This document shows positions 165 to 33,892 of a DNA stretch of 34,381 nt, one piece after another; position 1 is the stretch's first letter; each line of letters opens with the position of its first letter. Source of the DNA: a virus (Duplodnaviria; Caudoviricetes). Location of the stretch: the IMG/VR virus record IMGVR_UViG_3300022187_000109, positions 1 to 34,381 of that record, one strand, 5' to 3'. A program made the translations under genes and the position numbers. The notes beneath the pieces were generated by a model. That model made no database searches. It was not told where the DNA came from and was given only the letters and a program-made list of their open reading frames with translations.

Positions 165-174
165 TGGTTCGCGG

Positions 175-465
175 CTAGCTGTTCGCGGGAACCCCGACAA
201 GCTGCATTGCGCGGGTGAATGGGTCGCGGTCATCAAAGGTTCTTATGAATGTTGGCTGGGTTCCATCAAAGGTAGCCAACCCGCTCTCTAATTCCCCGAA
301 GCGGTTCGCGGCTGCCATCAGTTCTGGGCAATGTTCATCCAAGATTGCCCGCTGGTTTAAATCCATAGATGCAACGGCGGAGTGCAAGCTTTTCACCGCA
401 CACTGCAACGCAAAGATACGGGTATCAACAATGCCGACATTCTGGAGATAAGTTCTAAAAGACAT
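175..465 (-). CDS. Hypothetical early protein (96 aa)
   Basis: ORF track 175..570; start moved to ATG at 465 (MSFRTYLQ) because of the AGAAGGAAACCGAACC-ATG ribosome-binding leader. Confidence 0.7.
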   Translation of the reverse strand: MSFRTYLQNVGIVDTRIFALQCAVKSLHSAVASMDLNQRAILDEHCPELMAAANRFGELESGLATFDGTQPTFIRTFDDRDPFTRAMQLVGVPANS

Positions 466-535
466 GGTTCGGTTTCCTTCTCTAAAGTTAATGGGGACAA
501 GCTGCCCCGTCCCCATTGTTATTACATATCTGCAG

Positions 536-982
536 CTATGATGCAAGCCGGTAAAGTTTCCGGTATTCACTGCGCCCGCTGCCCTTGGTTTCTATCTGGT
601 AACCATGCCGCCGGATATCGTTGATATAGGTCATCAAAGTCCACCGGCTATAGCCAAGCAATCCCCGCAAATACGGAACATTAACAAAACCCCGCTCGAG
701 TTCTGCAATGATGCGATAATGTCCCCTGCAAAGATTGCGCGGGTTCTTCACCTGTTCGCGGCTGGTATCTTCCCCGCTGCGGTCTTCAAATATCCGCAAC
801 AGTTTCTCGCCCCATTCCTTATCGCGCTGGGCATAGCTGGCCTCTAGTTCGGCAACATAACCGCGCCAAATGCGGGTCGCCTCTTCTGTGGCCTTTTCCC
901 GCTCATCGGCACGGATAGCCGCCTCAGCGTCAACAAGGTCATTAGCAAGTGATGCGCGAATTGTTTCGATTGATTTAGTCAT
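536..982 (-). CDS. Coiled-coil protein with C-terminal winged-HTH-like DNA-binding domain
   Basis: C-terminus (LRGLLGYSRWTLMTYINDIRRHGYQIETKG...YRL) fits an HTH_11-like winged helix; the N-terminus is helical and charged; start taken at MTKSIE. Confidence 0.6.
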   Translation of the reverse strand: MTKSIETIRASLANDLVDAEAAIRADEREKATEEATRIWRGYVAELEASYAQRDKEWGEKLLRIFEDRSGEDTSREQVKNPRNLCRGHYRIIAELERGFVNVPYLRGLLGYSRWTLMTYINDIRRHGYQIETKGSGRSEYRKLYRLAS

Positions 983-1018
983 TTCGTGGTTCTTTCTGCC
1001 CATCGGGCGTTGGTTGGT

Positions 1019-1099
1019 TTAAGCAATGAAGACCGCATATATTATCGAGATTATCAACAGCACGGTCAGACTGCGATAAATTACATAGAGAGCTTCCAT
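1019..1099 (-). CDS. Small single-transmembrane peptide (26 aa, MEALYVIYRSLTVLLIISIIYAVFIA)
   Basis: Read manually (below the ORF-track cutoff); AGGA-TAAACACAA-ATG leader; hydrophobic stretch; fills the gap between co-oriented genes. Confidence 0.5.
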   Translation of the reverse strand: MEALYVIYRSLTVLLIISIIYAVFIA

Positions 1100-1149
1100 T
1101 TGTGTTTATCCTAACAAAATCCAAAGCATCAAGAAAAACTCTAGCGGGG

Positions 1150-2151
1150 TCATGCTGCCAACTTTCCGGCAAAGCCCAGCCATGCCTCAGACTGTATAAG
1201 GTCACGAACAGCAATTGAGTTATCGAGCCGTTTCCTTTCTTCCCTGCCGCCTTTGTTCGCGTTTGGTAAATGGGTTGACCAATGGGTCAAAGCATTAAAT
1301 GCCGCCCACATGGTCTCACCTAGTTCGCGGGTTTCTTTGCTGTAAAGGTCGAGCAATGTTGCAAGCTTGCGCTGGTTGACCTTCAAATCGTCATTATTTT
1401 CGGCAACCTTTCCCGCCTTATCAATCAAACCGGAAGCAATCAAAACATCATTAAATTGCTTTTCGGTCATGGTTTTTTCGCGGTAAAGCTGCATCGTTTC
1501 CGATTGTTCAGACCACATATCTAAACCTAAAACGCCTTTTGTGATTAGGGCTGCGCTATTCATGTTTTTTGTATGTTTCATTTTCTGGTGATAGGCCTTT
1601 TCCCCGCCAAAAACCAAGGTATTGCGGCACAAGTCACGATAAGCCCCGCTGAATACCTGCAATGTCCAAGATTTATCGACACTATTGAAGATATCCAGAC
1701 GACACCGGCTCACATCCTCTTGACCTGTTCTCGTCCGGCTGCGGTCGATTAAATCGTGAAAATAGATTGTCCGGTGAACACGCAAACCCTCTTGATATAT
1801 CCGGTCGCAAACTTCCACATTGCCTAGTTTATCCCGCAAACCGGAACCGCTCAAAATGTCGGATTGTTCCTGCATTAGTTCGTGGTGAGGTTTTAAACTA
1901 TAGGTTTCAAGATTAAACGGTACAACATCAACAACCCGATTTGTGCGGGTATTTTGCAAAGCGTGGTATTTCATGCGCTGCATATCAACAATGCCATCTT
2001 GGTCAGTGGTGACCGCTTCCACCGGCACCGGCTCGAAGCTGGCGAATTCATGGTAAAGACTGCAATCATTTATATCGTGATGAACGCTAAAAATATCCTC
2101 GCCTTTTGGTCTGGCGTTTTCGATTGCTTTGGTTGGTATCAAATCAAACAT
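1150..2151 (-). CDS. DUF932-family (phage/plasmid-like) protein
   Basis: 333 aa; FNSVDKS, RDLCRNTL, KHTKN and TMWAAFNALTHWSTH motifs resemble DUF932; AGAAGGA RBS. Confidence 0.7.
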   Translation of the reverse strand: MFDLIPTKAIENARPKGEDIFSVHHDINDCSLYHEFASFEPVPVEAVTTDQDGIVDMQRMKYHALQNTRTNRVVDVVPFNLETYSLKPHHELMQEQSDILSGSGLRDKLGNVEVCDRIYQEGLRVHRTIYFHDLIDRSRTRTGQEDVSRCRLDIFNSVDKSWTLQVFSGAYRDLCRNTLVFGGEKAYHQKMKHTKNMNSAALITKGVLGLDMWSEQSETMQLYREKTMTEKQFNDVLIASGLIDKAGKVAENNDDLKVNQRKLATLLDLYSKETRELGETMWAAFNALTHWSTHLPNANKGGREERKRLDNSIAVRDLIQSEAWLGFAGKLAA

Positions 2152-2207
2152 GGTTAATGTTCCTTCTACTGGTTGTTGGCATGGTAATTGCTACCAGCCT
2201 TGATTTG

Positions 2208-2258
2208 TTTATGCCAGCCCCCGCCAAACCGGTCAACAAAAAAAATCAGATAAAAAAA
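2208..2258 (-). promoter_or_regulatory. sigma70-type promoter with UP-like T-tracts upstream of DUF932 gene
   Basis: Minus strand TTGACC(2236-2231)-17 bp-CATAAA(2213-2208), preceded by two T-tracts. Confidence 0.6.
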
Positions 2259-2360
2259 TGGTGACAGCCCCGCGACTCGCTGCCACCGCCGCCCATGCCG
2301 CGCCCAGTCCCCCCGAACCACCAAGGATACCGCAAACGCACACAAGCCCCAGAAAATTAT

Positions 2361-2384
2361 TTGACAAGGGGGCATTTTTGTCAA
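2361..2384. promoter_or_regulatory. Inverted repeat TTGACAA-N10-TTGTCAA (possible operator or paired -35 boxes)
   Basis: Perfect 7-bp arms at 2361-2367 and 2378-2384, overlapping the stop codon of the Gp88-like gene. Confidence 0.35.
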
Positions 2385-3067
2385 TGCGTAACAAACAAGA
2401 TTTGTTTATCCGGTGCTGACCAACACAAGGTACAGGTCGCGCACGATTCCGCCGCGCCGGTTTGTTCAGGACAAACAATAGATTTTCCTTTGGTCGGCTT
2501 GTACAGGTCGGCACTGTTCGCGCTGAATTGCCAATCCGGTGCGTTGCTATAGCGTACGGAAAAACGTTCACCGAACACGCCGCGAACCGCACGGAGGGCA
2601 AGCCCGATATCACTATTTGGCGCATAGCCGGTGAAGCCCCAAACCGCCAGATTATCAAATTTAGTCAAGAGATGCTGCCACAGTTCGACATAATCGACAG
2701 AATAAAAATCCCCTAGAACATGCAGCCGGACAATCACCCCTTTATAGGTGGCGCATAATTCTTCTATCTCATTTTTTATGCGCTGCTCTAATTCGCTGCC
2801 ATGCTGCAACCGGTGCGCGAACATCATATTGTTCCCGTAACAATTATCCCAATGGTAACAAGAGCGGGGACAGGTGGCGCGTTCTTCTAGTGTCAGGGTA
2901 TAAATGACATAGCCCGCGAACTTGCCTTTTTTAATTACAGGTAATTTATCTTTTGAAAGCTTCGCATTCTTGGATTGCTTTAAAACATTGTGCGAATAAT
3001 CCGCCAGCAGTTTAACGGATTTGGGATACATTGTATTAGCTGGCTTGTTTACATCTGCTTTTTTCAT
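2381..3067 (-). CDS. Gp88-like cysteine-rich phage protein
   Basis: TCPRSC...CY, IVRLHVLGDF and C-terminal CPEQ...CATCTLCW motifs match my recollection of the phage Gene88 family; AAAGGA RBS. Confidence 0.65.
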   Translation of the reverse strand: MKKADVNKPANTMYPKSVKLLADYSHNVLKQSKNAKLSKDKLPVIKKGKFAGYVIYTLTLEERATCPRSCYHWDNCYGNNMMFAHRLQHGSELEQRIKNEIEELCATYKGVIVRLHVLGDFYSVDYVELWQHLLTKFDNLAVWGFTGYAPNSDIGLALRAVRGVFGERFSVRYSNAPDWQFSANSADLYKPTKGKSIVCPEQTGAAESCATCTLCWSAPDKQILFVTH

Positions 3068-3105
3068 CGGTTCGGTTCCTTTGTTGGTTAGTTAGTTTGG
3101 AAACG

Positions 3106-3312
3106 TTACGGATAAAATCCGGTATGGTCAAGCGGTAAAATTCGCTGCCCTTGTCTTTTTAAATAACATTCGGGACAGGAAAGCAAACCATTCTCGTTAG
3201 TCATGGCTGGTTCCCCGCAATCATCACAACGATATGCGGGGTTTAGCGTGGTTGATTTGTCACGTTTTAGCGTGGGCGATTTGTCAAAAGTTTGGCGTGT
3301 AGAATTTGCCAT
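3106..3312 (-). CDS. Small zinc-finger protein
   Basis: CDDC...CPEC pairs; the N-terminus is encoded by the repeat array. Confidence 0.55.
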   Translation of the reverse strand: MANSTRQTFDKSPTLKRDKSTTLNPAYRCDDCGEPAMTNENGLLSCPECYLKRQGQRILPLDHTGFYP

Positions 3313-3486
3313 CGTTCAGTTCCCTTTTTAGCGTGGCTAGTTTGTCACGTTCGGCATTTGTCACCGGTTCACCGTTCCAGTCTTTGTCACTGATTTGTCT
3401 GTTCAAGGTTCGCCATTTGTCAGCAACGTTTGTCAGGCGTGGGTCATTTGTCGCGTTGGGATAGCGTGGCGTTATTGTGCTTGTCA
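3244..3486. repeat. Iteron-like direct repeat array, consensus TAGCGTGG-N3-ATTTGTCA plus extra TTTGTCA half-sites
   Basis: Full or near-full units start at 3244, 3268, 3293, 3329, 3435 and 3462; perfect TTTGTCA at 3256, 3280, 3341, 3357, 3383, 3416 and 3429. Confidence 0.8.
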
Positions 3487-3487
3487 T
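3284..3487 (-). CDS. Hypothetical protein (67 aa) overlapping the repeat array
   Basis: ORF track; ATGA overlap with the upstream ORF 3484-3687. Confidence 0.5.
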   Translation of the reverse strand: MTSTITPRYPNATNDPRLTNVADKWRTLNRQISDKDWNGEPVTNAERDKLATLKRELNDGKFYTPNF

Positions 3488-3687
3488 ATATACTTACTCC
3501 AGTAGTTGTCCCAAGCTTCACGCAACATATCAGCATATTCTCTGTCGTTATGCAAGCCCAAGAAATCGCGGTGCGGTTCCATCTCTTGCATGAACTCACC
3601 AAAGAATTCGCAGTTGCCTATCTTACTGTTGGCAAGATACCAAAAGTCTTCTTCTAGTTGCATTGCCCAAGCTTTGACCTTACCCAT
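3484..3687 (-). CDS. Hypothetical phage protein (MGKVKAW-type)
   Basis: ORF track; GGAGAA RBS; tightly packed with neighbours. Confidence 0.7.
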   Translation of the reverse strand: MGKVKAWAMQLEEDFWYLANSKIGNCEFFGEFMQEMEPHRDFLGLHNDREYADMLREAWDNYWSKYI

Positions 3688-3883
3688 TGCAATTCTCCAT
3701 GTACCACGTTTTGAACCTATGGTAAGCCAGTATTTTGTAGGCTTCTAGGTCGAGGGTTTCCCATTCCTTGAGGTCAAGTCCCTCATATCTAAAACGGGTT
3801 TCCATTTCGCCATCCAGCATTACCATTATGGCGTTAGCTTCTGTGGGCGTTAATTCTATCCAAAGTTTGGTTTGTTTAGCCAT
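3680..3883 (-). CDS. Hypothetical protein
   Basis: ORF track; GAGGAAAG RBS. Confidence 0.7.
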   Translation of the reverse strand: MAKQTKLWIELTPTEANAIMVMLDGEMETRFRYEGLDLKEWETLDLEAYKILAYHRFKTWYMENCNG

Positions 3884-3892
3884 CGTCTTTCC

Positions 3893-4213
3893 TCAATCGT
3901 AGTTATAATACTTGATGTATTCGCACAGTCCCTTGTGCGCTTCTTGAATAGCACCGTATATGTCATCTAACTTGCTGTCAACTATGTCTGCATCTTGCAG
4001 GATTTTTTCTGCTTCAGAGATAGCCCGCAAAGCATCCAAGCAGGATTGTGCGGTGAGGGTGTGCAATTCCCCTTCACCGTCACACTCATCACACTTACCG
4101 TAGGTGCTATCTATCCAGCCACCGTTCGCAAAGTCTATGACCGGTTTGTCATATTCGGCAACCCCGCTGCCGTTGCACACAAGACAGGTCTGTCTAGTTG
4201 TCAAGGTCATCAT
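3893..4213 (-). CDS. Protein with DnaJ-type zinc finger (two CxxCxGxG motifs) and helical C-terminus
   Basis: CLVCNGSG and CDECDGEG; start re-assigned after the GGAG RBS. Confidence 0.7.
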   Translation of the reverse strand: MMTLTTRQTCLVCNGSGVAEYDKPVIDFANGGWIDSTYGKCDECDGEGELHTLTAQSCLDALRAISEAEKILQDADIVDSKLDDIYGAIQEAHKGLCEYIKYYNYD

Positions 4214-4409
4214 CGTCATCTCCAAATTCTGGAAACATATAATCAGCGGTATCACGGATGACATCCCAGTTGATGCCAATGGTTGCGTCGTGCTGCGACT
4301 TCAGAGCAAACAAAACCTCTAGGGCTTGGTCGTCTGTTAGCCAATCACATTCCACCTTGACATCATCCACAGACCAGACGATTGCAATTTCTTCATTACT
4401 TAGCTGCAT
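4194..4409 (-). CDS. Hypothetical acidic phage protein
   Basis: ORF track; AGAAGGA RBS; WSVDDV...LTDDQALEVL...HDATIGINW pattern. Confidence 0.7.
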   Translation of the reverse strand: MQLSNEEIAIVWSVDDVKVECDWLTDDQALEVLFALKSQHDATIGINWDVIRDTADYMFPEFGDDDDDLDN

Positions 4410-4635
4410 CTTCGGTTCCTTCTTCTATTAACTCAGTTGGCATTTTGTCCCATTCACTAAGCCGCATACGAAACTTCTTGTTTTGTATCGGGGTGCAAAC
4501 GCGAACCCACTTCCTTCCGACAACAGCCCAGACGAGCCGTGTGCCGGATACTGGTAATCTCATATCATAGAAATCCACACGGTACAACTTTGCCGTGTTC
4601 CATGTGGCTTCTTTTGGTTTAGGTATATTAGTCAT
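4396..4635 (-). CDS. Hypothetical protein
   Basis: ORF track; overlaps both neighbours in operon fashion. Confidence 0.65.
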   Translation of the reverse strand: MTNIPKPKEATWNTAKLYRVDFYDMRLPVSGTRLVWAVVGRKWVRVCTPIQNKKFRMRLSEWDKMPTELIEEGTEDAAK

Positions 4636-4831: not shown

Positions 4832-4841
4832 CACTCATCTC

Positions 4842-5950: not shown

Positions 5951-6745
5951 ATGACAGCTTGGTTAAAAGATTATGTGAACGGTTTGTCAATAGCATCGGA
6001 AGGTCGTCTGCGGATGGACTGCCCAGCTTGTGGCAAGAAAAATACGTTTAGTGTTTCGGATACAAATGGTGAACGCTTGTGGTTTTGCTTTCATGCAGAC
6101 TGCGGGGTTCGCGGGCGTACTGGTTTTCGAATCAGAAGCGACACACCATACCATCCCCTGTTGCGAAAGACAACACCAGTTCGCGAACCACTTTGCGAAC
6201 CGGAGTTCCAGCTTCCCGATACTATTGTCCCTGTGTCGCGCAGTGAAGAAGCCGTGCGGTACTTGAAGAGGGTCAATGCCTATGATGCGTACCTTGCGGG
6301 GCGTGTCGATATTCGTTATGACTTCAGAATGAACCGTGTTGTTTACCTGATTAAAGATGGTAGGCGAACCGTTGATGCTGCTGGTCGTAGTTTAGTTAAT
6401 GCCAAACCAAAATGGTGGAGATATGGAAAATCAGGTAATCCTTTCGTTTGTGGTTCCCAACGGCTGGGAGTTATTTTGGAAGACTGTGCTAGTGCTTGTT
6501 ATATTTCAGATATTATGTCGGGAATAGCCCTACTGGGAACCAACCTGCAAGACAGTCACTTGCCAACATTGCGGCACTATGATAGATTGCTTGTTGCATT
6601 AGACAAAGACGCTACCAAGAAAGCCCTCGAACTGGTTCGAAGATTACAGGCCATAAGGCCAACAAGTTTAGTTGTTTTAAACAAAGATGTGAAAGACATG
6701 ACAGATGATGAACGAAAACAAACCTTCCAGAAATACCTCGATTGA
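5951..6745 (+). CDS. DNA primase (N-terminal zinc-binding domain + TOPRIM)
   Basis: CPAC...CFHADC zinc ribbon; TOPRIM-like ILED and ALDKD motifs; directly upstream of the helicase. Confidence 0.85.
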   Translation: MTAWLKDYVNGLSIASEGRLRMDCPACGKKNTFSVSDTNGERLWFCFHADCGVRGRTGFRIRSDTPYHPLLRKTTPVREPLCEPEFQLPDTIVPVSRSEEAVRYLKRVNAYDAYLAGRVDIRYDFRMNRVVYLIKDGRRTVDAAGRSLVNAKPKWWRYGKSGNPFVCGSQRLGVILEDCASACYISDIMSGIALLGTNLQDSHLPTLRHYDRLLVALDKDATKKALELVRRLQAIRPTSLVVLNKDVKDMTDDERKQTFQKYLD

Positions 6746-7946
6746 ACTTCAGGTTCTGGGGTTCCTTTTAAATAACAATTTCTATAACAGGGTAAAGAAC
6801 ATTGTCACTCGCGATATGTTCGAGGGACGGTATGCCACTCTGTTTGATACAATCACCTATGCCCACAAGAATTACGGAACGAACCTGTCCCGTGAACAAT
6901 TGGATTCCCTGTTCATGGACAGGAACCCTGCAATGCCTAGCAGTGCAAAGCATGAAGTCTTTGATATTATTGCACAACTTAGCGAACACGTCAGTGATAC
7001 AGGTGACCTCGAACTAGATGTAACCAAGAACTTCTGGGTTCGTGACCGTGCGCGGCAGATTGGTGAGAAGGCTATTGCCATCTTCACTGGTGAGTCCGAA
7101 CATTTTGGCGAACTCAAGACGCTCATCGATATGGTCGAAGATGGTCGTATGTCCGACAAGACAACCTACAGTGAAATGGACAAAGACTTTGTTCAGCTAA
7201 TAGAAGAGGAGACAGGCGAACCGGACTTTCCCTTCACTTGGGATTTAATGAGCGAACACCTAGCTGGTATGGACAGAGGTAACTTAGGTATTATCTTTGC
7301 CCGCCCTGAAGTTGGCAAGACAACCTTCTGTGCCTTTGTTGCCGCCAGCTACATTAAACAGAAACACAAGGTCGTGTACTGGGCGAACGAGGAACCGGCA
7401 GAAAAGATTAAGCTAAGAATTATCCAAAGCTTTTTTGGCTTGACACGGGAAGAGATGAAGGCAGGGGCTGATGCCTTGTCCCATCGGTACGCAGAAGAAA
7501 TTGCGCCGTACCTTACCGTGATGGATTCGGTTGGTACATCGATGGAAGAACTGAACGAGTATGCCCAGCTAAACGAACCGGACGTAATGTTCTGTGACCA
7601 GCTAGACAAGTTCAGGGTATCCGGTGAATTTAACCGTGGAGATGAACGCCTAAAGGAAACGTATGTCGTGGCTCGTGAGATTGCCAAGCGTAACAAACTA
7701 CTGGTGTGGTCAGTTAGTCAGGCAAGCTTCGAGGCACATGACCGGCAGTTCATCGACTATGCTATGCTCGACGGTTCGCGAACCGGTAAGGCTGGTGAGG
7801 CAGATGTAATCATCGGTATCGGCAAGACCGGTACGTCAGAGGAAGAGAACACCACACGGCACATCTGCATTTCTAAAAACAAACTCAATGGGTGGCACGG
7901 TATGTTTACCAGCCACATTGATGTGCAGCGGGGGGTGTATTACTAA
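6705..7946 (+). CDS. DnaB-like (SF4) replicative helicase
   Basis: Walker A ARPEVGKT, Walker B-like VMFCDQ, VSQA and KNK motifs. Confidence 0.9.
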   Translation: MMNENKPSRNTSIELQVLGFLLNNNFYNRVKNIVTRDMFEGRYATLFDTITYAHKNYGTNLSREQLDSLFMDRNPAMPSSAKHEVFDIIAQLSEHVSDTGDLELDVTKNFWVRDRARQIGEKAIAIFTGESEHFGELKTLIDMVEDGRMSDKTTYSEMDKDFVQLIEEETGEPDFPFTWDLMSEHLAGMDRGNLGIIFARPEVGKTTFCAFVAASYIKQKHKVVYWANEEPAEKIKLRIIQSFFGLTREEMKAGADALSHRYAEEIAPYLTVMDSVGTSMEELNEYAQLNEPDVMFCDQLDKFRVSGEFNRGDERLKETYVVAREIAKRNKLLVWSVSQASFEAHDRQFIDYAMLDGSRTGKAGEADVIIGIGKTGTSEEENTTRHICISKNKLNGWHGMFTSHIDVQRGVYY

Positions 7947-8533
7947 TGAATGTCTTGACCTTCGATGTGGAAACAACCCACAAACCCAAAGCCAATGGTT
8001 CGACAACTGCCTTGCCATACTTCGGAAACTCTTTGGTTTCAAACGGTTACAAGTGGTTGGGTGAGCCGCACGTTCACTATCACTGTTACTACCACAGTGT
8101 TCGCGAACCGCATGAGTTCGCCTTCGAACTGTTCCAAGCTGCTCTTGACAAAGCCGACGTAGTTGTGGGACAAAACATTAAGTTTGATTTATCTTGGATT
8201 CGCGACTGCGGATTCGTTTATGAGGGACACGTCTATGATACAATGGTTGCAGAATATATTCTTGCCCGCTCCCAAAGGTGGCCTCTTTCACTTGTTGCTC
8301 TTGCAGAAAAGTATAGTGATGTGCAAAAAGAGAAAGACCTCATTGCGCCGTATTTTAAGGAAGGCAAGACCTTCTACGACATACCTTGGGAAATAATAGA
8401 AACGTATGGAAAGGCTGATGTCATTTCCACAGAGCAAGTAGCCCTTGCACAACTCGAAGCCTTTGGCACTACATTTGAGGAACTATTCAATGAACAACCA
8501 AACACTCTTGCCCACTTTGCGTCTGTCGCTTGA
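7946..8533 (+). CDS. 3'-5' exonuclease domain of family A DNA polymerase, encoded as a separate gene
   Basis: ExoI FDVET, ExoII GQNIKFD, ExoIII YGKAD; TAATG coupling with the helicase. Confidence 0.85.
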   Translation: MNVLTFDVETTHKPKANGSTTALPYFGNSLVSNGYKWLGEPHVHYHCYYHSVREPHEFAFELFQAALDKADVVVGQNIKFDLSWIRDCGFVYEGHVYDTMVAEYILARSQRWPLSLVALAEKYSDVQKEKDLIAPYFKEGKTFYDIPWEIIETYGKADVISTEQVALAQLEAFGTTFEELFNEQPNTLAHFASVA

Positions 8534-10037
8534 GATGACAGATGTGCTGTCCCGCATCGAACGGAACGGCATCAAGATTAACAGACAAACACTTGCAGAC
8601 ATTCGCCGCGAGTACGAAGACGAACTGTTTACCCTCGAACGCCGCCTCAACGAACTGGCTGCGGAAGCTATGGGTGATACCCCCATCAACTTAGACAGCC
8701 CGGATGACCGTTCCAAGCTGTTCTATTCTTGTAAGGTAAAGGACAAGTCCCGCTGGGCTGGTCTGTTTAACTTGGGTCACGAGATTAGAGGGGCGGGTCG
8801 CAAACCCAAACGCCGTACCCGAATGAGCCGTACAGACTTTAAACGCAACGTTGTGAACGAGACAGAAGTTCTGTTCAAGACCCGTGGTAGCCAGTGTGCC
8901 GATTGCGGGGGCGTAGGGCGTTATACAGCCCGTAAGAAGGATGGGACGCTGGGTAAGGCTATCCGAATCTGTAAGCCCTGTCAGGGGGCTGGTGTGCGCT
9001 ATACATCAACTGGTCAGGTTGCGGGGTTCAAGCTGGTTCCTCGTGACCCTTATGATGTGGCTGCTGCTGGTTTCAAAACAGATAAGGAAACGTTGGAAAG
9101 TATGTTCACATCCCTGCGGGGTGAAGCCCGTGAGTTCGCAGAAGCTTACATCCGGTACAGTGCGGTTCGAACTTACCTGCGTTCTTTCGTTGAGGGCATG
9201 GAGAACAACATGGATGGGCAGGGGTTTATCCACACTGAGTTCATGCAGTGTGTCACGGCTACTGGTCGTCTGTCATCCCGCAACCCAAACTTTCAGAACA
9301 TGCCACGAGGTACTACCTTTATCATCAGGCGGGCTGTTGAAAGCCGGTTCGAGGGCGGGTCAATCCTAGAGGGCGATTACGCCCAGCTAGAGTTTAGGGT
9401 GGCTGGTTTCCTTGCGGATGATGAGGGCATCAAGACAGATGTGGATGCCGGAACAGATGTGCATAGCTATACTGCCAGTGTCATAGGATGTTCGCGGCAA
9501 GATGCCAAGGCTCATACCTTCAAGCCACTCTATGGTGGTGTGTCAGGTACAGATGACCAGAAACGATATTACAATGCGTTCAAGGAAAAGTATAACAATG
9601 TTACCAAGTGGCACGAGTTCCTGCAGAAACATGCGGTAACAAAGAAATACATCCAGCTTCCTTCGGGCAGGCAATACGCTTTTCCTCATGCAAGGTGGAC
9701 TGATTGGGGTACAGCAACCGACCGAACTGCCATCTGCAACTATCCGGTTCAGGGGTTTGCAACGGCTGACCTTCTGCCTATGTCACTGGTTTTGTTGGAC
9801 AAACGAGTTCGCGAACTGAACTTGCGTTCGGTTATCTGCAACACGGTTCACGATTCCATCGTCATGGATGTGTACCCCAGCGAAGAAAAAAAATGTATTG
9901 ACGTGATGGCTGAATGTATGTTAGCTATCCCGTTGGAATCAAAGAATAGGTACGGGATTACCTATGATATGCCAGTTGGTATCGAACTAAAAATGGGTAA
10001 AAACTGGCTTGACTTGGAAGAGGTACTTACTGTATAA
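8490..10037 (+). CDS. Family A DNA polymerase (polymerase domain) with DnaJ-type zinc-finger insert
   Basis: TATGRLSS, motif A DYAQLEFR, motif B KAHTFKPLYG, motif C VHDS; CADCGGVG and CKPCQGAG; own GAGGA RBS before ATG 8490. Confidence 0.93.
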   Translation: MNNQTLLPTLRLSLEMTDVLSRIERNGIKINRQTLADIRREYEDELFTLERRLNELAAEAMGDTPINLDSPDDRSKLFYSCKVKDKSRWAGLFNLGHEIRGAGRKPKRRTRMSRTDFKRNVVNETEVLFKTRGSQCADCGGVGRYTARKKDGTLGKAIRICKPCQGAGVRYTSTGQVAGFKLVPRDPYDVAAAGFKTDKETLESMFTSLRGEAREFAEAYIRYSAVRTYLRSFVEGMENNMDGQGFIHTEFMQCVTATGRLSSRNPNFQNMPRGTTFIIRRAVESRFEGGSILEGDYAQLEFRVAGFLADDEGIKTDVDAGTDVHSYTASVIGCSRQDAKAHTFKPLYGGVSGTDDQKRYYNAFKEKYNNVTKWHEFLQKHAVTKKYIQLPSGRQYAFPHARWTDWGTATDRTAICNYPVQGFATADLLPMSLVLLDKRVRELNLRSVICNTVHDSIVMDVYPSEEKKCIDVMAECMLAIPLESKNRYGITYDMPVGIELKMGKNWLDLEEVLTV

Positions 10038-15834: not shown

Positions 15835-16256
15835 CTTCGATGGAACCAGCAGTCTGTGACCGCAAGAAGTTCGATATCGATTTATCCTACGGCAAGGTTC
15901 GCGAACAGCAAGTTGCCGACATGCTTACGGATAAAAAGATTGAGGTCAAATCTGAACGTGGCATGTGGATGAAAACTGGCAACATAGCCATAGAGTACGA
16001 ATCCTATGGTAAGCCCAGTGGCATAGAAGCAACTGAAGCAGACTACTGGTTCCACAATCTTTGCATTGGTGATGAAACCTTTGCAACCTTGGTGTTCGAC
16101 GTGCCGTCCTTGAAACGCATCATAAATAATTTAGATTACAAAAAATCCGTGAGCGGCGGAGACAACAACGCTTCACGGATGTACCTTCTGAATCTACAGA
16201 AGTTGTTTTCAACAGATGTAATTAAGGCGTACAAAAATGAGCAACAAGCATCCTAA
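15831..16256 (+). CDS. Conserved phage protein, PD-(D/E)xK-like fold
   Basis: IEVKSE, TGNIAIE, GKPSGI and ADYW. Confidence 0.6.
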   Translation: MTSMEPAVCDRKKFDIDLSYGKVREQQVADMLTDKKIEVKSERGMWMKTGNIAIEYESYGKPSGIEATEADYWFHNLCIGDETFATLVFDVPSLKRIINNLDYKKSVSGGDNNASRMYLLNLQKLFSTDVIKAYKNEQQAS

Positions 16257-16678: not shown

Positions 16679-16707
16679 CATATGGGAGTTCGCGAACCGT
16701 TTGTCAA
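16679..16707 (-). promoter_or_regulatory. sigma70-type promoter containing GTTCGCGAAC in its spacer
   Basis: Minus TTGACA(16707-16702)-17 bp-CATATG(16684-16679); palindrome at 16688-16697. Confidence 0.55.
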
Positions 16708-21857: not shown

Positions 21858-23929
21858 TATTGGTTCCTTTTCCTTCTTTGTTCGCGGAGCAGTCTATTTT
21901 CATTAGCGTCTGCAGGAATAAGTCCGTCAGGAGTTTCAACATACCATCCTAAAGGTGGATTGCCGGGTCTTCCTGCGCTAAACACCATATTCTTAGTACC
22001 TTGTCCTTCAACGGTAAGGGTATCTGTTATTGTTGGTTTGAACCCTTCGGGAACCGGAACAACTTGCGGACTTTTTAGAACATCAGCATCAACGTCCGCT
22101 GGGGCACCTTCCTTCTTGATTTCAGGAAGCGGTGGAACAATACCACGGGCAGACAACGCCCTTTGATTTTTCATCGTTTCGCGAACCTTTTGAACACGAG
22201 TAAATGCAATAAGCATCTTGCGGTCCTGAATGTCAATATTGTCCTTGTTGACAAGTTCAGCAAGAGGCTGCATGTCAGCTCTTTTCTTAACCAAAACATT
22301 CAAGGTTTCTTGCAAACCAGCAAGCTGTCTGGTTTTCGAACTGCCAAGGAAACCAGCATCACCCAAAAGTTTGAGAGCGTTGTCAAAGTCTTGGTTCGAC
22401 AAGCGGCCTGATGGGTCGGCAGCACGGGCAAGCTTCATGGCTAGGTTGATGCGAAGCGTTTGTACCCTACCCAGAGTTCCCTCTAGGCTATAGCCATTTG
22501 CAAGAGCAATGCGACGCAGCGAATCCGCTGTGGTTGCCTCTCCCAAAGATATACCTTCTTTCAAATTAGTGGTGAAGCTTTCGGTGCCCTCTATCTTTTC
22601 AGTAAACCCGAATATTTGGTCGATTGTACCGCCTTCAGATATGAGACCGCTAATACCGGACTGGATTGACCGAACAATGCCGGAAGTCGTATCAAGTTCA
22701 GCTTCATACTGGAACAGACGCTCCATCAAATCCGCTGCATCTTTAGTGGCACTATAGGTGCTTGTGATTTCAGACGGCTTGTGGCCTTTGCTCGTAAGAA
22801 ATTCTGAACCAGAAGGTTGGGCACTTTCGAGACCCATATCTGGTTCTTTTTCAATTTCCACATGTGGATACATTGCGCGAACCTGTGCGCCCACATTACC
22901 AATATAAAAGTTCTTTTCGTTTTCTCCGCCAACCCGTTCCAAAACTGTACCCATTCCAATTACATCGTTGATTGGAGTTGCGAAAGTTCGGTCTAGGCTT
23001 TCAGGGCGATAAGGTGCAAGGTATGAGGCGTTAATCATACTTTCAACCTGTGTCTGGGGGTTTTTAGACATGGTTCGCGAACTGACAAAGTTACTGTCGA
23101 GCAGCATGTGGCTTCCAGATTTGTAGCCCTGCTGAGTGGCAAAAGTGTTGACTAATTCTGCTTCAGCGTCATCTTTGAGGGGTTTTATGGTAATGGTAGA
23201 TGTGTTTGGACTGTCGGGTATAGCTACAGCTATGCTGTTCTGGGGTACACCTCTACCTTCCGTTACTCTATCTAAAGCACTGTCCAGTATGATATCACGC
23301 GAAGATACATCCGTGCCTTGATTAAAGACACTAAACAGGTCATTAAAGTATGGAACATTGTTGAAGTTTGGAATTGCACCCTTTACAATTTTGGTTCCCG
23401 GACCTGCTTCTCTAGCACTACGAGTTTCGTGAACATACGCTGTGTAGTTTATGTGGGATGAGTTTAAATAGTTTGCCCATTCTCTGCCTGCACCTTGCGG
23501 GTCTGCTTTGATGGTATTTATAACTGTTGTTCTGTTTTGAGGTTTCGACAACCAGTTGTTCAGGTTATTCATTTCTAGGTCAGGACGACCTTTTTCAAAG
23601 GTAACCCCAGAATTGTTCCAAGGAAGAGTTACGCCGCCAACTACTTTTGTTTCTTTGGCATCTTGCATCATGCTGGTTAAATCGCCAAGACCGGTTACGT
23701 CCATGCCTGCTTTCTGTAACGCAGCGTTAGCTAAAGCTGGGTTTTTTGCAGAAATACCTGCTTTAAAAACATCTAACCACGCATCCCGTGTCTTCTGCTC
23801 TGCTTCTCTATCTAGCTTTTCTCGTTCGGCAATAGCTTTGTTTTCTGCAATTTTGCCTTCTATTTTTGCGTCAAAATAGCCCTGCGCTACGGGTACTAAT
23901 TTTTGTAATACTTTACTCAACCCTTTCAT
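21857..23929 (-). CDS. Putative internal virion protein, 690 aa
   Basis: Position and coupling with neighbours; ARAADPSGRLSNQD motif. Confidence 0.55.
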   Translation of the reverse strand: MKGLSKVLQKLVPVAQGYFDAKIEGKIAENKAIAEREKLDREAEQKTRDAWLDVFKAGISAKNPALANAALQKAGMDVTGLGDLTSMMQDAKETKVVGGVTLPWNNSGVTFEKGRPDLEMNNLNNWLSKPQNRTTVINTIKADPQGAGREWANYLNSSHINYTAYVHETRSAREAGPGTKIVKGAIPNFNNVPYFNDLFSVFNQGTDVSSRDIILDSALDRVTEGRGVPQNSIAVAIPDSPNTSTITIKPLKDDAEAELVNTFATQQGYKSGSHMLLDSNFVSSRTMSKNPQTQVESMINASYLAPYRPESLDRTFATPINDVIGMGTVLERVGGENEKNFYIGNVGAQVRAMYPHVEIEKEPDMGLESAQPSGSEFLTSKGHKPSEITSTYSATKDAADLMERLFQYEAELDTTSGIVRSIQSGISGLISEGGTIDQIFGFTEKIEGTESFTTNLKEGISLGEATTADSLRRIALANGYSLEGTLGRVQTLRINLAMKLARAADPSGRLSNQDFDNALKLLGDAGFLGSSKTRQLAGLQETLNVLVKKRADMQPLAELVNKDNIDIQDRKMLIAFTRVQKVRETMKNQRALSARGIVPPLPEIKKEGAPADVDADVLKSPQVVPVPEGFKPTITDTLTVEGQGTKNMVFSAGRPGNPPLGWYVETPDGLIPADANENRLLREQRRKRNQ

Positions 23930-29878: not shown

Positions 29879-32033
29879 AAGTACCATATTCGAGCGTAAC
29901 TGCGTCCAAAGAGTGTGGTGGGTTCGTTGAATTCGCACGGAACTGGAGCGAAACAACATACCCAGAGCCTACCATCTGGCTCTCAAATAATCGTTGAATT
30001 GTACCACCATAACTACCTGTTCCATAAATAGCGGTTCCATAAAATGCCGGGACGTTTGCCCCTGAAGTGTTGTCGAACACGACGGGGGTAGGTTGGATAA
30101 TTCCCAACTCGTCAAAATCAAACAGCAGGTTTACTTCACTGAAGAAACTGCCATCTGGGTCCGTGTACAAAAACATCTTGTAGATGGTCTTGCGAATCCG
30201 GGGGTCGTTGATTGGGATGTACGGGGTAGCAAAGGTCGAATAAATCTGCGCCCCATCCAAGCTGTTTCCCGACTCCATCTGGTAAACGTATCCGGTTGTG
30301 TTCGCGAACACGATGGTTTCAATTCCTTCGTAGAGATTGCTACTGGCAACGTATGCCTTGAATCCCCGCAACTCTGCCCAGTTGATTCCCTGCTCCACCT
30401 GCGAACCGATGATACCCTGTGATGCGTCTGCCGAAAAGTTCGTGTTGTACCCAAGCAGCCTGTACTGGCTCTTAGGGCGAATCACCACACTGCTAAATGA
30501 GGTGTTGCGGTTCACGAAGTCGGTTACGTCATCTTGTATCGGCTTTGATGCAACAGCAAGGTTGAAGTCCCCCACCCTGTCGGTTGCAGACAAGCTTCGT
30601 ATTCCATCTGGTCCCAAGTAAAGTACGTCCCCGCCAATCTCTTGAATTGTGTCAGTTTCTGTACAACCGGTGTCCAGAGTGATAGGCTGAAGCTGGAAAT
30701 CCCCAATCGTATTGCCTACCAATCGCTTGATAGACCTCTCACTAAATATTATAAGCTGTTCTCTAAAAATAATCAAGCCCGTAATTGCACTTCCGACATT
30801 TATTGTTCCTGCGCCACTTGCTGCAGAGAAATCATCGTAGGTGTAGGGGGCTGTAAACAGCAGGTTCGAACCCTTTGCAAAGAAAAGCTGGTTCTTGAAG
30901 TTTGCTACGTGGCCTGCGCCGTTACCGTCCGTAGGAATACCGTCGAGGGCGGTAAAGAACGTTCCGTCGTACACAAATGGTACGTTGGCCCCATCAACCC
31001 CTACCATGTAGTCGGTTCCGCTGTAGTTGAAGTTCACGAACCGGTGTTTGTCCATGCCGGTACGGTCTACAGAAAGGAACGTCAGGGCTGCGTTGTCTGC
31101 GGGGCTACTGTTCAGGGCAGGGTCGATAGCAAAGGTTGCAGAGCCGCTGGTAACTGTTGGGGTAGCTGTCAAGGTGTAGATTAGGTCTACGCCTGCAATC
31201 GTAAAGGTGTCGCCAACCTGTGGTGTTCCTGTGATGCCATCCACAACCAAGCTAGTTCCGGTTTGCGAACCACCGTCTACCAAGACAGTACCATAGTTTG
31301 GCGTGTTTATTTTTGTCCAACCGGAACCCGTCGATTTAAACAGGTCTGAACCCCGTGCTGCAATCACTGCGCTTTCGAAGGTGTGTACCCCTTGAATGAT
31401 TCCAGAGCCAGATACAAAGGTTAGGGCATCTTGGTCAGAGGGGTTTACGACCATCGTTTGGTCTAGGGTCAAGGTAGCCCGTTTGTTCACGGAACTAAAA
31501 GAGACACCGCCAGATGCAATCGTGTAGCGGAACGACAGAACAGCATCATCTGCGGGTGCTACTGTAATTGCCGGAGTGATGGTCAGGGTGGATGCCGTAC
31601 CTACGAGAGCGGTTGCGGCACTCACTGTGTAAACTGTGGTATCCCCAGCGATAGTAAATGTGTCGTTTGCAGATGGGGCAACATCCAAGCCATCTACGTT
31701 TAGGCTCGTTCCTGTTTGTGCTGCGCCGTCTACAGCCCCGCCAGCAAGAGAAAACACGTCGGTTGCGGCAGGTGCAGTGTAGATGTTGCCGACAATCAGG
31801 GTTGTGCCGCTCTGTCCGTTACCGTGAACCAGTGGCGCACCATACGGGGGAACGATGTCCGGGTCGTACTTATCGTAGCCTTGAATCGAACGATAACCAC
31901 CCTCGATAGATGGTTCGTAATTACGAAGGATACGAGCCGACCCCGGAGCATTGATACCATGCTGCAACGGGGACATGTTCGTGATGAGGCCACCTTTAAA
32001 TTCGATGGCGTATGTTTGCCAACGGTCAGGCAT
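29865..32033 (-). CDS. Tail tubular/nozzle protein (beta-propeller-like) with three inserted ~70-aa modules
   Basis: GGL N-terminus; LIIFSE, GC...TIQEIGGDVLYLGPDGIRSL pattern; follows the adaptor gene. Confidence 0.7.
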   Translation of the reverse strand: MPDRWQTYAIEFKGGLITNMSPLQHGINAPGSARILRNYEPSIEGGYRSIQGYDKYDPDIVPPYGAPLVHGNGQSGTTLIVGNIYTAPAATDVFSLAGGAVDGAAQTGTSLNVDGLDVAPSANDTFTIAGDTTVYTVSAATALVGTASTLTITPAITVAPADDAVLSFRYTIASGGVSFSSVNKRATLTLDQTMVVNPSDQDALTFVSGSGIIQGVHTFESAVIAARGSDLFKSTGSGWTKINTPNYGTVLVDGGSQTGTSLVVDGITGTPQVGDTFTIAGVDLIYTLTATPTVTSGSATFAIDPALNSSPADNAALTFLSVDRTGMDKHRFVNFNYSGTDYMVGVDGANVPFVYDGTFFTALDGIPTDGNGAGHVANFKNQLFFAKGSNLLFTAPYTYDDFSAASGAGTINVGSAITGLIIFREQLIIFSERSIKRLVGNTIGDFQLQPITLDTGCTETDTIQEIGGDVLYLGPDGIRSLSATDRVGDFNLAVASKPIQDDVTDFVNRNTSFSSVVIRPKSQYRLLGYNTNFSADASQGIIGSQVEQGINWAELRGFKAYVASSNLYEGIETIVFANTTGYVYQMESGNSLDGAQIYSTFATPYIPINDPRIRKTIYKMFLYTDPDGSFFSEVNLLFDFDELGIIQPTPVVFDNTSGANVPAFYGTAIYGTGSYGGTIQRLFESQMVGSGYVVSLQFRANSTNPPHSLDAVTLEYGTYGRR

Positions 32034-32037
32034 GGGC

Positions 32038-32718
32038 TTACGATGCCCTCATGTAGATGTTTTCATTGACCGTTACTGTTCTCATCTGTTTAATACCCTC
32101 GTCGAACTTGCGTTGTGAAACCGATGCCATCTCTAGATTGTCACGGAACATGTAGGCATAGTACATAGCCCCATCGATGATTACATGACGAAACCGCTCT
32201 GGAATTGTCGGGACATCCGTATTAAGGATGAGGTCAACAGGGTCCATGAAATACTCAAAGTCTACCTGATAGGCTTTGTCTGGCATGGGAACCACGCCCC
32301 ACTCACCGTTTTGGGTACGGAACACACGCTCTGGAACTGCACCTAGAGCCGTGTTGGTTTCGTCCTCTTGGTCGATGAACCGGTCTATATATTCATCGTA
32401 ACTAATCTGAGTTAGGTGTTCGGCTCTGCCTAATCCCAACGCTGCATCTCTGCGAACACGAAACGTATCAAAATCAACGTACTTTGCCTGAGACGGAATA
32501 GGGTATCTGGTAACCCCTGCAGTTAAAGTTTGCTGGTATGTGTTGTGATTGAAAGGCCAGCCAAAGTGCGCCTGATTGATGTGACGAATAGAGGAGTTCA
32601 CAGCCTCTTTGATTGCGCTGTAAAACCCCGTAGCTGACGCAAAGTTCGCAGAGGTTAGCTGCGTCTCATTTAGGCGTTTGGCAACATCGTTGGTTAAACT
32701 GAGATAATCATAGGCCAT
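32038..32718 (-). CDS. Head-tail adaptor / tail tubular protein A-like
   Basis: YLSLTNDV..RLNE, WPF, PMPDKAY and IPERFRHVI motifs; position in the structural block. Confidence 0.7.
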   Translation of the reverse strand: MAYDYLSLTNDVAKRLNETQLTSANFASATGFYSAIKEAVNSSIRHINQAHFGWPFNHNTYQQTLTAGVTRYPIPSQAKYVDFDTFRVRRDAALGLGRAEHLTQISYDEYIDRFIDQEDETNTALGAVPERVFRTQNGEWGVVPMPDKAYQVDFEYFMDPVDLILNTDVPTIPERFRHVIIDGAMYYAYMFRDNLEMASVSQRKFDEGIKQMRTVTVNENIYMRAS

Positions 32719-32720
32719 AG

Positions 32721-33068
32721 TTACCGGGTCCTTACTTTGAGGTTAACGGAGCGAATAGCTGTGCTGCCTGTGGTGTCTGTCATCGTACAATAAAACGTGT
32801 AGTTTCGGGTGTTTACTCCGCTGCCGATATTGATGGTGGCAACCGTGTTGGTCTGTGTTTGGGACACATTCTGGATGCTGTCCGTGGTTGCCCCGCCTGA
32901 TGCGGTAGTCAGGTCCTGACCCGAAGCCAAAACTGTACGGGTAGAGTATGCGTCGGTCTCGACAGACCAGACGACTGTGGAGATGGTTGCAGCACCAAGA
33001 AACCGCGACCAGTCCATGCTATAGTCGAGCGTCTCTCCGGGGTCTTTGAAGGGCCATTTGTATGACAT
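32721..33068 (-). CDS. Putative virion structural protein (KDPxExLDYxxDW type)
   Basis: KDPGETLDYSMDW motif; beta-rich. Confidence 0.6.
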   Translation of the reverse strand: MSYKWPFKDPGETLDYSMDWSRFLGAATISTVVWSVETDAYSTRTVLASGQDLTTASGGATTDSIQNVSQTQTNTVATINIGSGVNTRNYTFYCTMTDTTGSTAIRSVNLKVRTR

Positions 33069-33071
33069 AAA

Positions 33072-33179
33072 TTACTCCACGTAAACTGTTCTTGTAAAGC
33101 TGTTGCCGATACTTTCTACCGCAACAACCCGTGTTTCTTGGGGAACGTTGATTGTTCGTTCGTAAGTTGTAAGTGGCAT
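33072..33179 (-). CDS. Small hypothetical peptide (35 aa, MPLTTYERTINV...RTVYVE)
   Basis: Read manually; exactly fills the gap between co-oriented genes, and its end supplies GGAG for the next gene. Confidence 0.5.
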   Translation of the reverse strand: MPLTTYERTINVPQETRVVAVESIGNSFTRTVYVE

Positions 33180-33181
33180 TT

Positions 33182-33892
33182 TTAAGCTGCCCTGTCTATC
33201 ACTGAGGTACGCCGTCTATCATATAGTTCGCGAACCGCGTTAAAATCGAATTGTACTCCGGTATAAGTTCCGGTTCCGACAGTAAAGGTTCCTTGTACAC
33301 CCGAAATTCCAGCGGTGGTGTGAAGCGTTAAACTTCCAACGGCACCTGTGGCTGCTACCCCTGTCGCTATTCTTTCGGTTGGTTGGTCTTCTACACCACC
33401 GCAAGTTACTGTTCCTTGAACACCTGTTAGCGTGAGAGTGTTACTATGCTCAAGTGTTCCTATCGAACCTGTTGCAGTTACACTACCAAGTATTTCTGTA
33501 ATGTTAACCTGAACTGTGTTAACTGTGCCTGTTGCACTCACACTGCCCAAAGCTTCAGTCGGCTTTTCTTCTACAGTGTTCACAAAGCCAGTGGCTTGTA
33601 CTCCTGTTATTGGAGTATTGATGTTTTCTTTTACGGTGTTAACTGTACCTGTTGCTGACACGCCTACAACAGATACTTTAATAAATATGTTTACGGTCCC
33701 TATCGAACCTGTAGCACTAACACCTGTAGAAATACGTTCTGTAACATCTACTTCAAACCCGCCTGCAACGAGAGGGGCTATCGCACCAGTCGCAGAAACT
33801 CCAGCTATGCTTGCTGTGATATCTACTTCGCCGTATCGGGATGTGCCGTATATGCCTACCCCGTACCGCGCTGACTGTGCTATGATAGCCAT
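33182..33892 (-). CDS. Gly/Val/Thr-rich repetitive virion protein
   Basis: About ten GV(S/Q)ATGx(V/I)(G/N)T-like repeats. Confidence 0.7.
   Translation of the reverse strand: MAIIAQSARYGVGIYGTSRYGEVDITASIAGVSATGAIAPLVAGGFEVDVTERISTGVSATGSIGTVNIFIKVSVVGVSATGTVNTVKENINTPITGVQATGFVNTVEEKPTEALGSVSATGTVNTVQVNITEILGSVTATGSIGTLEHSNTLTLTGVQGTVTCGGVEDQPTERIATGVAATGAVGSLTLHTTAGISGVQGTFTVGTGTYTGVQFDFNAVRELYDRRRTSVIDRAA

What the first reader, a model, noticed from the sequence alone, without database searches (positions are those of the whole stretch)
167..33235. Genome-wide highly iterated palindrome GTTCGCGAAC: a HIP1-like signal in a phage
Seen: perfect 10-bp GTTCGCGAAC at 6179, 7774, 8099, 9807, 15897, 16688, 23073, 30300 and 33226. 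There are 9/10 variants with an intact TTCGCGAA core near 13705, 14006, 14578, 22178 and 29806. GTTCGCGG or its reverse complement occurs about 19 times (e.g. 167, 181, 304, 754, 1323, 2580, 2914, 5397, 6107, 9490, 14956, 15401, 16941, 17930, 21880). A rough base-composition estimate gives about 0.03 copies of the 10-mer and 3-4 of the 7-mer in 34 kb, against 9 and about 43 counted by eye. It is read in all three frames (V-R-E in primase and polymerase, S-R-T in helicase and the 690-aa protein, F-A-N in the tail protein) and intergenically, so the protein sequence does not explain it. Established: phages usually avoid palindromes because of restriction pressure, and cyanobacterial HIP1 (GCGATCGC) is the classic over-represented palindrome. 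Inference: these sites are positively maintained, for example as binding sites for a phage or host DNA-binding protein (genome organisation, ejection, packaging, protection or decoy), or through a methylation-linked process. I know of no description of this motif in such phages.
Basis: partly seen in the sequence, partly recalled or inferred. Interest (0 to 1): 0.88.

Follow-up and report, generated by a model that had tools for sequence, protein, structure and literature searches.

The report
Phage genome stamped with packaging word

Summary
Real and selected, but not HIP1-like. All 9 palindromes are there (about 0.5 expected). The unit, though, is a one-way word, (G/T)GTTCGC(G/A)(G/A). It is enriched on both strands and in all six frames, and GTTCGCGGG outranks the palindrome. 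Synonymous losses are cut to 0.11x (7-mer) and gains change amino acids. The word marks one clade of HMO-2011-type phages (84 of 84 sequences); it is at chance in HMO-2011 and 80 subgroup-I loci, and far sparser in 401 bacterial genomes. No methyltransferase was found. New here: just beyond window base 1, upstream of the small-terminase operon, a conserved non-coding core is flanked by inward-pointing clusters of the word (171 of 172 sites in 53 junctions; left repeats mostly 20-22 bp apart). Where the junction word changes to GTTGCCGG, the genome-wide word changes too (3.6x vs 0.7x). In relative phiM6 the pac cut is predicted at the same position. Best reading: a packaging-signal word, likely read by TerS, iterated genome-wide.

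The parts
167..33235 (.). Genome-wide iterated asymmetric word (G/T)GTTCGC(G/A)(G/A): 221 GTTCG, 66 GTTCGC-R-R and 53 GTTCGCG on both strands, randomly spaced
6179..6188 (.). Perfect palindrome GTTCGCGAAC (primase gene, V-R-E)
7774..7783 (.). Perfect palindrome (helicase gene, S-R-T)
8099..8108 (.). Perfect palindrome (3'-5' exonuclease gene)
9807..9816 (.). Perfect palindrome (DNA polymerase gene)
15897..15906 (.). Perfect palindrome (141-aa gene)
16688..16697 (.). Perfect palindrome (intergenic)
23073..23082 (.). Perfect palindrome (690-aa gene)
30300..30309 (.). Perfect palindrome (tail gene, F-A-N)
33226..33235 (.). Perfect palindrome (236-aa gene)
1..313 (.). Left edge of the conserved junction: GTTCGCGG copies at 167, 181 and 304 and the early-operon terminator (stem about 90-115, minus strand). 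The junction continues just beyond base 1, in G012/L112 4433-4960: left cluster about 4508 and 4529, conserved core about 4600-4690, right cluster about 4699, 4748 and 4781 on the other strand, divergent sigma-70-like promoters at 4877 and 4930. The TerS gene is at 5200-5601.
536..1003 (-). Coiled-coil plus winged-HTH early gene.
5951..6745 (+). Primase with a clade-conserved zinc-binding domain; rival reader
7946..10037 (+). PolA split into an exonuclease ORF (7946-8533) and a polymerase ORF (8490-10037); marks the clade that carries the word

Best explanation
The one-way word (G/T)GTTCGC(G/A)(G/A) is kept by selection across the whole genome and forms inward-pointing clusters around a conserved non-coding core that is likely the phage's packaging-start (pac) site, so it is probably a double-stranded-DNA binding site for a phage packaging protein, most likely the small terminase. 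Shown: enrichment on both strands, slowed loss and faster gain, restriction to one clade, the oriented clusters, and joint change of the junction word and the genome-wide word. In a very large population such a small advantage would be enough. The palindrome appears only where GTTCGCGAA fits both strands, and mainly in lineages whose right-hand junction sites end in A.
For: Word and selection: all six frames; synonymous loss 94 vs 193 for GTTCG and 4 vs 36.6 for GTTCGCG; gain 71 vs 43; rank 5 of 394 5-mers and 2 of 221 7-mers; non-synonymous gains 8 vs 1.6 and 13 vs 4.5. Clade restriction. It is 2-4.7x in most vertically inherited genes and 0.5-1.2x in the swapped tail cassettes, the MsmA-like gene and the 81%-HMO-like gene. 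Junction: in 53 non-redundant junctions (of 79 with a core hit), 78 of 79 left sites and 93 of 93 right sites point at the core; 44 of 53 have both clusters; 22 of 34 left spacings are 20-22 bp, about two helical turns. Covariation outside the junction: GTTGCCGG is 32/8.9 where the junction uses it (17 loci) and 9/13.4 where it does not (35 loci); Spearman 0.67, n=52; GTTCGCGA is 10.1x vs 2.2x according to the right-site tail. Pac analogy: phiM6 TerL is 53% identical, and PhageTerm set its pac cut at base 1, 600 bp upstream of TerS (PMC6256558, main text); our core starts about 620 bp upstream of TerS in the window's close relatives. The core's best match in HTVC033P and CRP-1 is also at the late-operon start. 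TerS: Terminase_2 E 1e-4 and PHROG terS E 2e-6; its HTH model superposes on the SF6 TerS domain (2.4 A, 56 columns) and PaP3 TerS. The TerS gene itself is 4.6x enriched. Short pac-like words recruit P22 terminase in vivo, and extra P1 pac sites compete for terminase (PMC11260489, passages).
Against: No binding or terminus data. The phiM6 pac sequence does not match the core significantly (nhmmer gave no hit there, and it was not among the top windows), so the link is by position only. TerS of pac packagers, including the SF6 domain that is our best fold match, binds DNA weakly and without sequence preference in vitro (PMC4737164 and PMC9611059, passages). The fold matches have E >= 0.1. Two residues at the start of the TerS recognition helix vary among phages with the same word, and no residue tracked the GTTGCC variant. 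Enrichment does not fall with distance from the junction (the 440-aa gene is 4.7x). HTVC033P and HMO-2011 do not iterate their own junction words. The covariation rests on related genomes and is not phylogenetically independent; 5 of the 17 'GTTGCCGG' loci belong to the window's own subclade. The 7-mer synonymous gain was not raised (8 vs 6.7).
Confidence: 0.45

Rival explanations
1. The junction is a replication origin, and the word is an iteron or a long primase start site. Outward-facing primers would be made at the two clusters, and scattered copies would serve lagging-strand priming.
For: The 20-22-bp repeats around an AT-rich core resemble iterons (general knowledge). The 5' GTT with a weak G/T preference at -1 and none at -2 fits primers that start with A-A-C or A-C (inference). 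The primase zinc domain is nearly invariant in the clade and differs outside it. Density is about 2x higher in the early and replication half. Primase sites do leave a signature in T7.
Against: The T7 control is weak and on one strand only: 166 vs 130 sense, 185 vs 191 antisense. Here it is 2.3x on both strands, with no strand switch at the junction and no even spacing (CV about 1). The leftward transcript ends at a terminator before the core's G-run. No initiator gene was recognised.
Confidence: 0.25
2. A host factor reads the word: a Chi-like site of the host's recombination nuclease, or a nucleoid protein that this clade recruits at the junction.
For: Lambdoid phages without recombinases over-represent host Chi (PMC3784561, abstract). 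Host bending proteins act at some packaging sites (recalled). The true host was not identified.
Against: HMO-2011 shares the total avoidance of GATC, CCWGG and CCGAG and up to 87-90% identical lysis and tail proteins, yet lacks the word. The GATC-tolerant subclade keeps it. In 401 genomes of the class of a Parvibaculum-titled MAG, the top densities were about 10 per Mb (10-mer) and 38 per Mb (GGTTCGCGG), against 262 and 175 per Mb in the window. The number of SAR116 genomes in that sample is unknown.
Confidence: 0.12
3. Another clade-specific phage protein (an early regulator, or an ejected or condensing protein) coats the genome at these sites and also controls the late promoter.
For: Two conserved copies sit just downstream of the late promoter. 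Several clade-only ORFs have no family. Precedents are stoperators and the Cluster O repeat.
Against: The one recognisable early HTH swaps its recognition helix between strains. The sites lie in coding DNA in both orientations, intergenic DNA is not specially enriched, and no integrase was found. The fold of the 5257-5559 protein gave no match.
Confidence: 0.12
4. A HIP1-like methylation and repair process, or a polymerase mutation bias, creates the word without any binding function.
For: The clade has an unusual split PolA. HIP words track methyltransferases (PMC4390886, abstract).
Against: The word is asymmetric and graded. No methyltransferase was found in the ORFs scanned. Loss is slowed up to ninefold, and the non-coding clusters keep their position and orientation. 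The word persists across different restriction-avoidance profiles.
Confidence: 0.06

Closest known systems
SPP1/SF6 pac site (boxes a, b, c around pacC, overlapping the terS promoter region)
   Same: Repeat boxes on both sides of a conserved core at the head of the terminase operon; a Terminase_2-type TerS with an N-terminal HTH (PMC4737164 passages).
   Different: Here the boxes are inverted across the core and the same word recurs through the whole genome. The SF6 TerS domain showed no box preference in vitro.
Sinorhizobium phage phiM6 pac (HMO-2011-related)
   Same: TerL 53% identical; predicted cut 600 bp upstream of TerS, the position of our core.
   Different: No significant sequence match to the core, and no such word iterated in phiM6.
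HIP1 of cyanobacteria
   Same: A short word written through coding DNA far above chance.
   Different: HIP1 is a true palindrome tied to cognate methyltransferases (PMC4390886 abstract). This word is one-way, phage-clade-specific, has no methyltransferase, and has a home cluster.
Chi over-representation in lambdoid phages
   Same: Phage genomes selected to accumulate a short asymmetric word (PMC3784561 abstract).
   Different: Chi is the host's word and is abundant in the host. This word was not found enriched in the sampled bacteria or in HMO-2011, which probably shares the host family.
Mycobacteriophage stoperators and the Cluster O 17-bp repeat
   Same: More than 20-30 copies of a phage-specific site across the genome. 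The Cluster O half-site also contains GTTCG (PMC4351075 passages; PMC9283540 search listing).
   Different: Those are long, near-invariant sites, mostly between or at the start of genes. This word is short, graded and inside genes, and shows no spaced-dyad form. The shared letters are probably chance.

Membership tests
HIP1 / alternate HIPs | Strong genome-wide over-representation inside coding DNA | tested here: met
HIP1 / alternate HIPs | The iterated unit is a palindrome | tested here: not met
   GTTCGCGGG 18.2x > palindrome 13.4x; the palindrome is below the square of the one-strand value 6.1x; the mismatch scan is asymmetric
HIP1 / alternate HIPs | A cognate methyltransferase in the same genome | tested here: not met
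   None in 49 window ORFs, 24 further ORFs (21 from G012, 3 short window ORFs) and 63 G001/G002 ORFs; host enzymes not tested
pac site of a headful packager | Lies at the head of the terminase operon | tested here: met
   core about 370-680 bp upstream of terS across the clade
pac site of a headful packager | Terminase of a class with pac-type packaging | tested here: met
   TerL 53% identical to phiM6, which is predicted pac-type; TerS Terminase_2-like, below the Pfam cut-off
pac site of a headful packager | Virion DNA ends map to the site | tested here: inconclusive
   Only contigs are held. 16 of 23 nearby contig starts fall within -70 to +290 of the core, but assembly breaks would do the same.
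pac site of a headful packager | TerS binds the flanking boxes | not testable with these tools
   needs EMSA, SELEX or a packaging assay
Primase recognition site (T7 type) | Enriched on the lagging-strand template only | tested here: not met
   T7 control is one-stranded; here both strands, no switch
Chi-like host site | Strongly over-represented in the host chromosome | tested here: inconclusive
   Not found in 401 sampled genomes of the class, but the host was not identified
LexA box (alphaproteobacterial or Gram-positive spacing, recalled) | Half-sites paired at a fixed spacing | tested here: not met
   GTTC direct pairs at 11 bp: 23, similar to other distances; CGAAC-N4-GTTCG: 0
Stoperator | Intergenic sites oriented with transcription, temperate repressor | tested here: not met
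   Sense and antisense equal; 3 of 53 GTTCGCG counts intergenic; no integrase found

The most novel reading that the evidence does not exclude
This clade has turned the recognition word of its packaging site into a genome-wide identity barcode. Its small terminase reads the word on any part of a concatemer, so DNA carrying more copies is packaged first, and the word spreads by selection or by packaging drive even at the cost of amino-acid changes. If so, the iterated words seen in other phages may also be read off their packaging sites, and each names the sequence specificity of an uncultured phage's terminase.
Probability: 0.35. Interest if true: 0.9.

Novelty: new variant of a known kind. 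Interest (0 to 1): 0.74.

Why it matters
How pac-type terminases tell phage DNA from host DNA is unresolved: genetics shows specific sites, while in vitro binding is weak and non-specific. This clade offers a defined word, a graded preference table, a natural variant (GTTGCCGG) and a measurable selection signal, which together make the question testable with one small protein. It also gives the first concrete home locus for a highly iterated phage word; several such words in this scan have no known reader. The word marks foreign modules in an abundant marine phage group.

Tried and rejected
Palindrome as unit: rejected. LexA-type spaced boxes: rejected; 9 GTTCG direct pairs at 11 bp against about 3 at other distances is not backed by GTTC pairs and comes from related genomes. 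Even spacing: not seen. Early wHTH gene and DUF932 as reader: disfavoured, both are swapped between strains with the same word; a literature search gave no function for DUF932 (listing only). A Parvibaculum-titled MAG holding a phage contig is not enriched (3 copies in 4.8 Mb) and is probably mis-binned. G213, the top 10-mer outlier, is at chance for GTTCG (440/425 in 108 kb; those stretches were picked to include known matches). A search for a SAR116 handle with the MsmA-like protein gave one short contig and no host. Other viral lineages: of 80 long loci from a pattern scan that covered 15 of 64 parts of IMG/VR, only L163, a clade member, was enriched; 40 short loci were uninformative. Terminus mapping from four runs: contigs only; a 200-300-bp piece left of the core had about twice the depth in three runs and half in the fourth, inconclusive. 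Sequence homology between the phiM6 pac and the core: not significant. Structure of the 5257-5559 protein: pLDDT 59, no match. Rfam on the junction: 4 matches, all far below threshold. The protein atlas did not answer. A UUCG-tetraloop reading was rejected: both strands are equal and the -1 and +7 bases do not pair.
Full report
Observation. The counts and coordinates hold: 9 perfect 10-mers, 20 GTTCGCGG and 53 GTTCGCG on both strands. In 32.2 kb of coding DNA, shuffles that keep the protein, codon usage and codon junctions give 1.0 against 16 strand-counts (10-mer), 9.0 against 48 (7-mer) and 87 against 208 (GTTCG); none of 300 shuffles came close. An independent contig, G012, is 99.96% identical and supplies the missing 18 kb of a genome of about 52 kb.

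What the word is. GTTCG is the top 5-mer, equal on sense and antisense strands and raised in all six frames. Changing any of the first five bases of GTTCGCG drops the ratio from 7.1 to between 0 and 1.9, while positions 6-7 are graded. Around GTTCGC, position -1 prefers G then T, positions 7-8 prefer purines, and -2 and -3 show little preference. GTTCGCGGG (18.2x) beats the palindrome (13.4x). The palindrome is below what two independent one-strand matches would give (6.1 squared), and other 10-bp palindromes are depleted, 173 against 305. So the palindrome is a by-product. Spacing is random, and no LexA-type pairing was seen (the LexA spacings are recalled).

Whose word. The phage is HMO-2011-type, with no integrase found and a PolA split into two ORFs. 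It has no GATC, CCWGG or CCGAG, as in Puniceispirillum phage HMO-2011, and its clade shares lysis and tail proteins of up to 87-90% identity with that phage, so a SAR116 host is likely (inference). On a polymerase tree, all 84 clade sequences have GTTCG observed/expected of 1.3-3.0, and the 4 isolates 0.7-0.9; a subclade that tolerates GATC keeps the word. Eighty subgroup-I loci pool to 550/624, although two short ones reach 2.0. Most vertically inherited genes are 2-4.7x; swapped tail cassettes, the MsmA-like gene and an 81%-HMO-like gene are 0.5-1.2x; the capsid (1.5x) and 690-aa genes (1.3x) are low too. Only 1 of 80 long loci from a partial IMG/VR pattern scan was enriched, and it belongs to the clade. 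How many of these were SAR116 is unknown.

Selection. On 749 short branches from up to 16 core genes, using the 67 sequences with GTTCG ratio of 1.8 or more, synonymous loss was 94 against 193 for GTTCG and 4 against 36.6 for GTTCGCG. Gain was 71 against 43 for GTTCG and 8 against 6.7 for the 7-mer. Against all words, these rank 5 of 394 (median 0.98) and 2 of 221 (median 0.75), so other words reach similar ratios on smaller counts. Amino-acid-changing gains were 13 against 4.5 and 8 against 1.6. Slower loss with faster gain fits weak positive selection or drive better than targeted mutation.

The home locus. Window base 1 lies at the edge of a non-coding junction between the end of the early operon and the start of the terminase operon. 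In order, it holds a terminator, 1-3 copies of TGTTCGCGGGG, a conserved core of about 100 bp, 2-3 copies on the other strand, and divergent promoters. In 53 non-redundant junctions (79 had a core hit; near-duplicates and truncated ones were dropped), 78 of 79 left sites and 93 of 93 right sites point at the core. 44 of 53 junctions have both clusters, and 22 of 34 left spacings are 20-22 bp. Some distant members have decayed or different clusters. In some lineages the junction uses GGTTGCCGGG; outside the junction those loci carry GTTGCCGG at 32/8.9, the others at 9/13.4. Junction site number tracks enrichment elsewhere (rho 0.67, n=52). Lineages whose right sites end in A have GTTCGCGA at 10.1x against 2.2x, which explains why the palindrome is limited to part of the clade. 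These loci are related, so this is not independent evidence of co-evolution, but it ties the scattered word and the junction word to one reader.

What the junction likely is. TerL is 53% identical to that of Sinorhizobium phage phiM6, whose pac cut PhageTerm placed 600 bp upstream of terS (PMC6256558, main text read). Our core starts about 620 bp upstream in the window's close relatives. The sequences do not match significantly, but the core's best window in HTVC033P (score 31.8, mean 18.2, SD 2.1) and in CRP-1 is also at the late-operon start; in HMO-2011 it ranks third, and in CRP-3 fifth. Boxes on both sides of a cut site at the terS promoter are the SPP1 plan (PMC4737164, passages). The gene is a TerS, and its modelled HTH matches SF6 and PaP3 TerS, though at E 0.1 or worse. 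PaP3 TerS binds its site specifically, whereas pac-type TerS bind weakly and without preference in vitro (PMC9611059, passages). In vivo, short pac-like words raise P22 packaging almost 10,000-fold, and extra P1 pac sites lower phage yield (PMC11260489, passages). Read ends could not be mapped. Neither HMO-2011 paper searched mentions termini or this motif in the passages seen (PMC9038755; PMC6918029).

Mechanism. Most likely, a phage protein binds the word on double-stranded DNA. The phased clusters build the complex at pac, and scattered copies make phage concatemers better than host or competitor DNA at capturing terminase. The first step is well supported; pac is likely; TerS as reader is the weakest link (0.45 overall). 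The main rival is origin or primase use (0.25). My T7 control (site recalled) shows that primase sites leave only a 1.27x signal on one strand, unlike this case. Host factor (0.12), another phage protein (0.12) and a methylation or mutation process (0.06) follow.

Known or new. It works like other iterated genome words (HIP1, PMC4390886 abstract; lambdoid Chi, PMC3784561 abstract; stoperators, listing; Cluster O repeat, passages), but it is not a member of HIP1: it fails the palindrome and methyltransferase tests. Searches found no report of this word, or of a packaging-site word iterated through a phage genome; the library lacks most subscription journals. Earlier notes of this scan list other phages with iterated words and unknown readers; they are unchecked leads, and none shown mentions a cluster at terS.

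Verdict. The feature is real, selected and clade-specific, and it is better described as an iterated one-way junction word than as a palindrome. It ranks high because it gives a testable handle on terminase specificity; it is held back by the unproven reader.

Noticed in passing
window 7946-8533 and 8490-10037: PolA is split into separate exonuclease and zinc-finger/polymerase ORFs with overlapping ends across this clade; it is one ORF in HMO-2011, CRP-1, CRP-3 and HTVC033P. It could be a true split or a programmed frameshift.
   Followed up: partly
L112 4730-4850 (minus strand), just beyond window base 1: A leftward sigma-70-like promoter and a terminator, both visible in the aligned relatives, would give a transcript of about 110-120 nt beside the core; no Rfam family.
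   Followed up: partly
window 536-1003: A coiled-coil plus winged-HTH early protein whose DNA-binding half is swapped between close strains, with at least four recognition-helix types.
   Followed up: partly
whole window: Complete absence of GATC (0 vs 115), CCWGG, CCGAG, CAGCTG and GGTACC in coding DNA: strong restriction avoidance, largely shared with HMO-2011.
   Followed up: partly
window 175-5876: The early operon is inverted relative to HMO-2011 and HTVC033P; it points away from the primase gene and towards the terminase junction.
   Followed up: no
L248-L327 (subgroup I loci): Weaker iterated words in subgroup I: CTACG about 1.6x on both strands, and CCGACA/ACCCCGA 2-5x, the latter resembling the 3' end of distant junction sites; partly due to homologous codons.
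   Followed up: partly
L127 13875 and 14804; L082 52-75 and 1253-1276: HMO-2011 has a 17-19-bp operator-like repeat four times in its early region.
   Followed up: no
window 1-4000 and G012 TerS/TerL genes: Near the junction the word is about twice as frequent on the template strand (84/44 and 73/38 pooled over six related genomes); not corrected for relatedness.
   Followed up: partly
window 15831-16256: A highly conserved 141-aa protein (about 80% identical to HMO-2011) with what looks by eye like a PD-(D/E)xK nuclease motif; no Pfam hit.
   Followed up: no
L112 8352-10724: A 790-aa protein of no known family sits between TerL and the portal in this clade.
   Followed up: no
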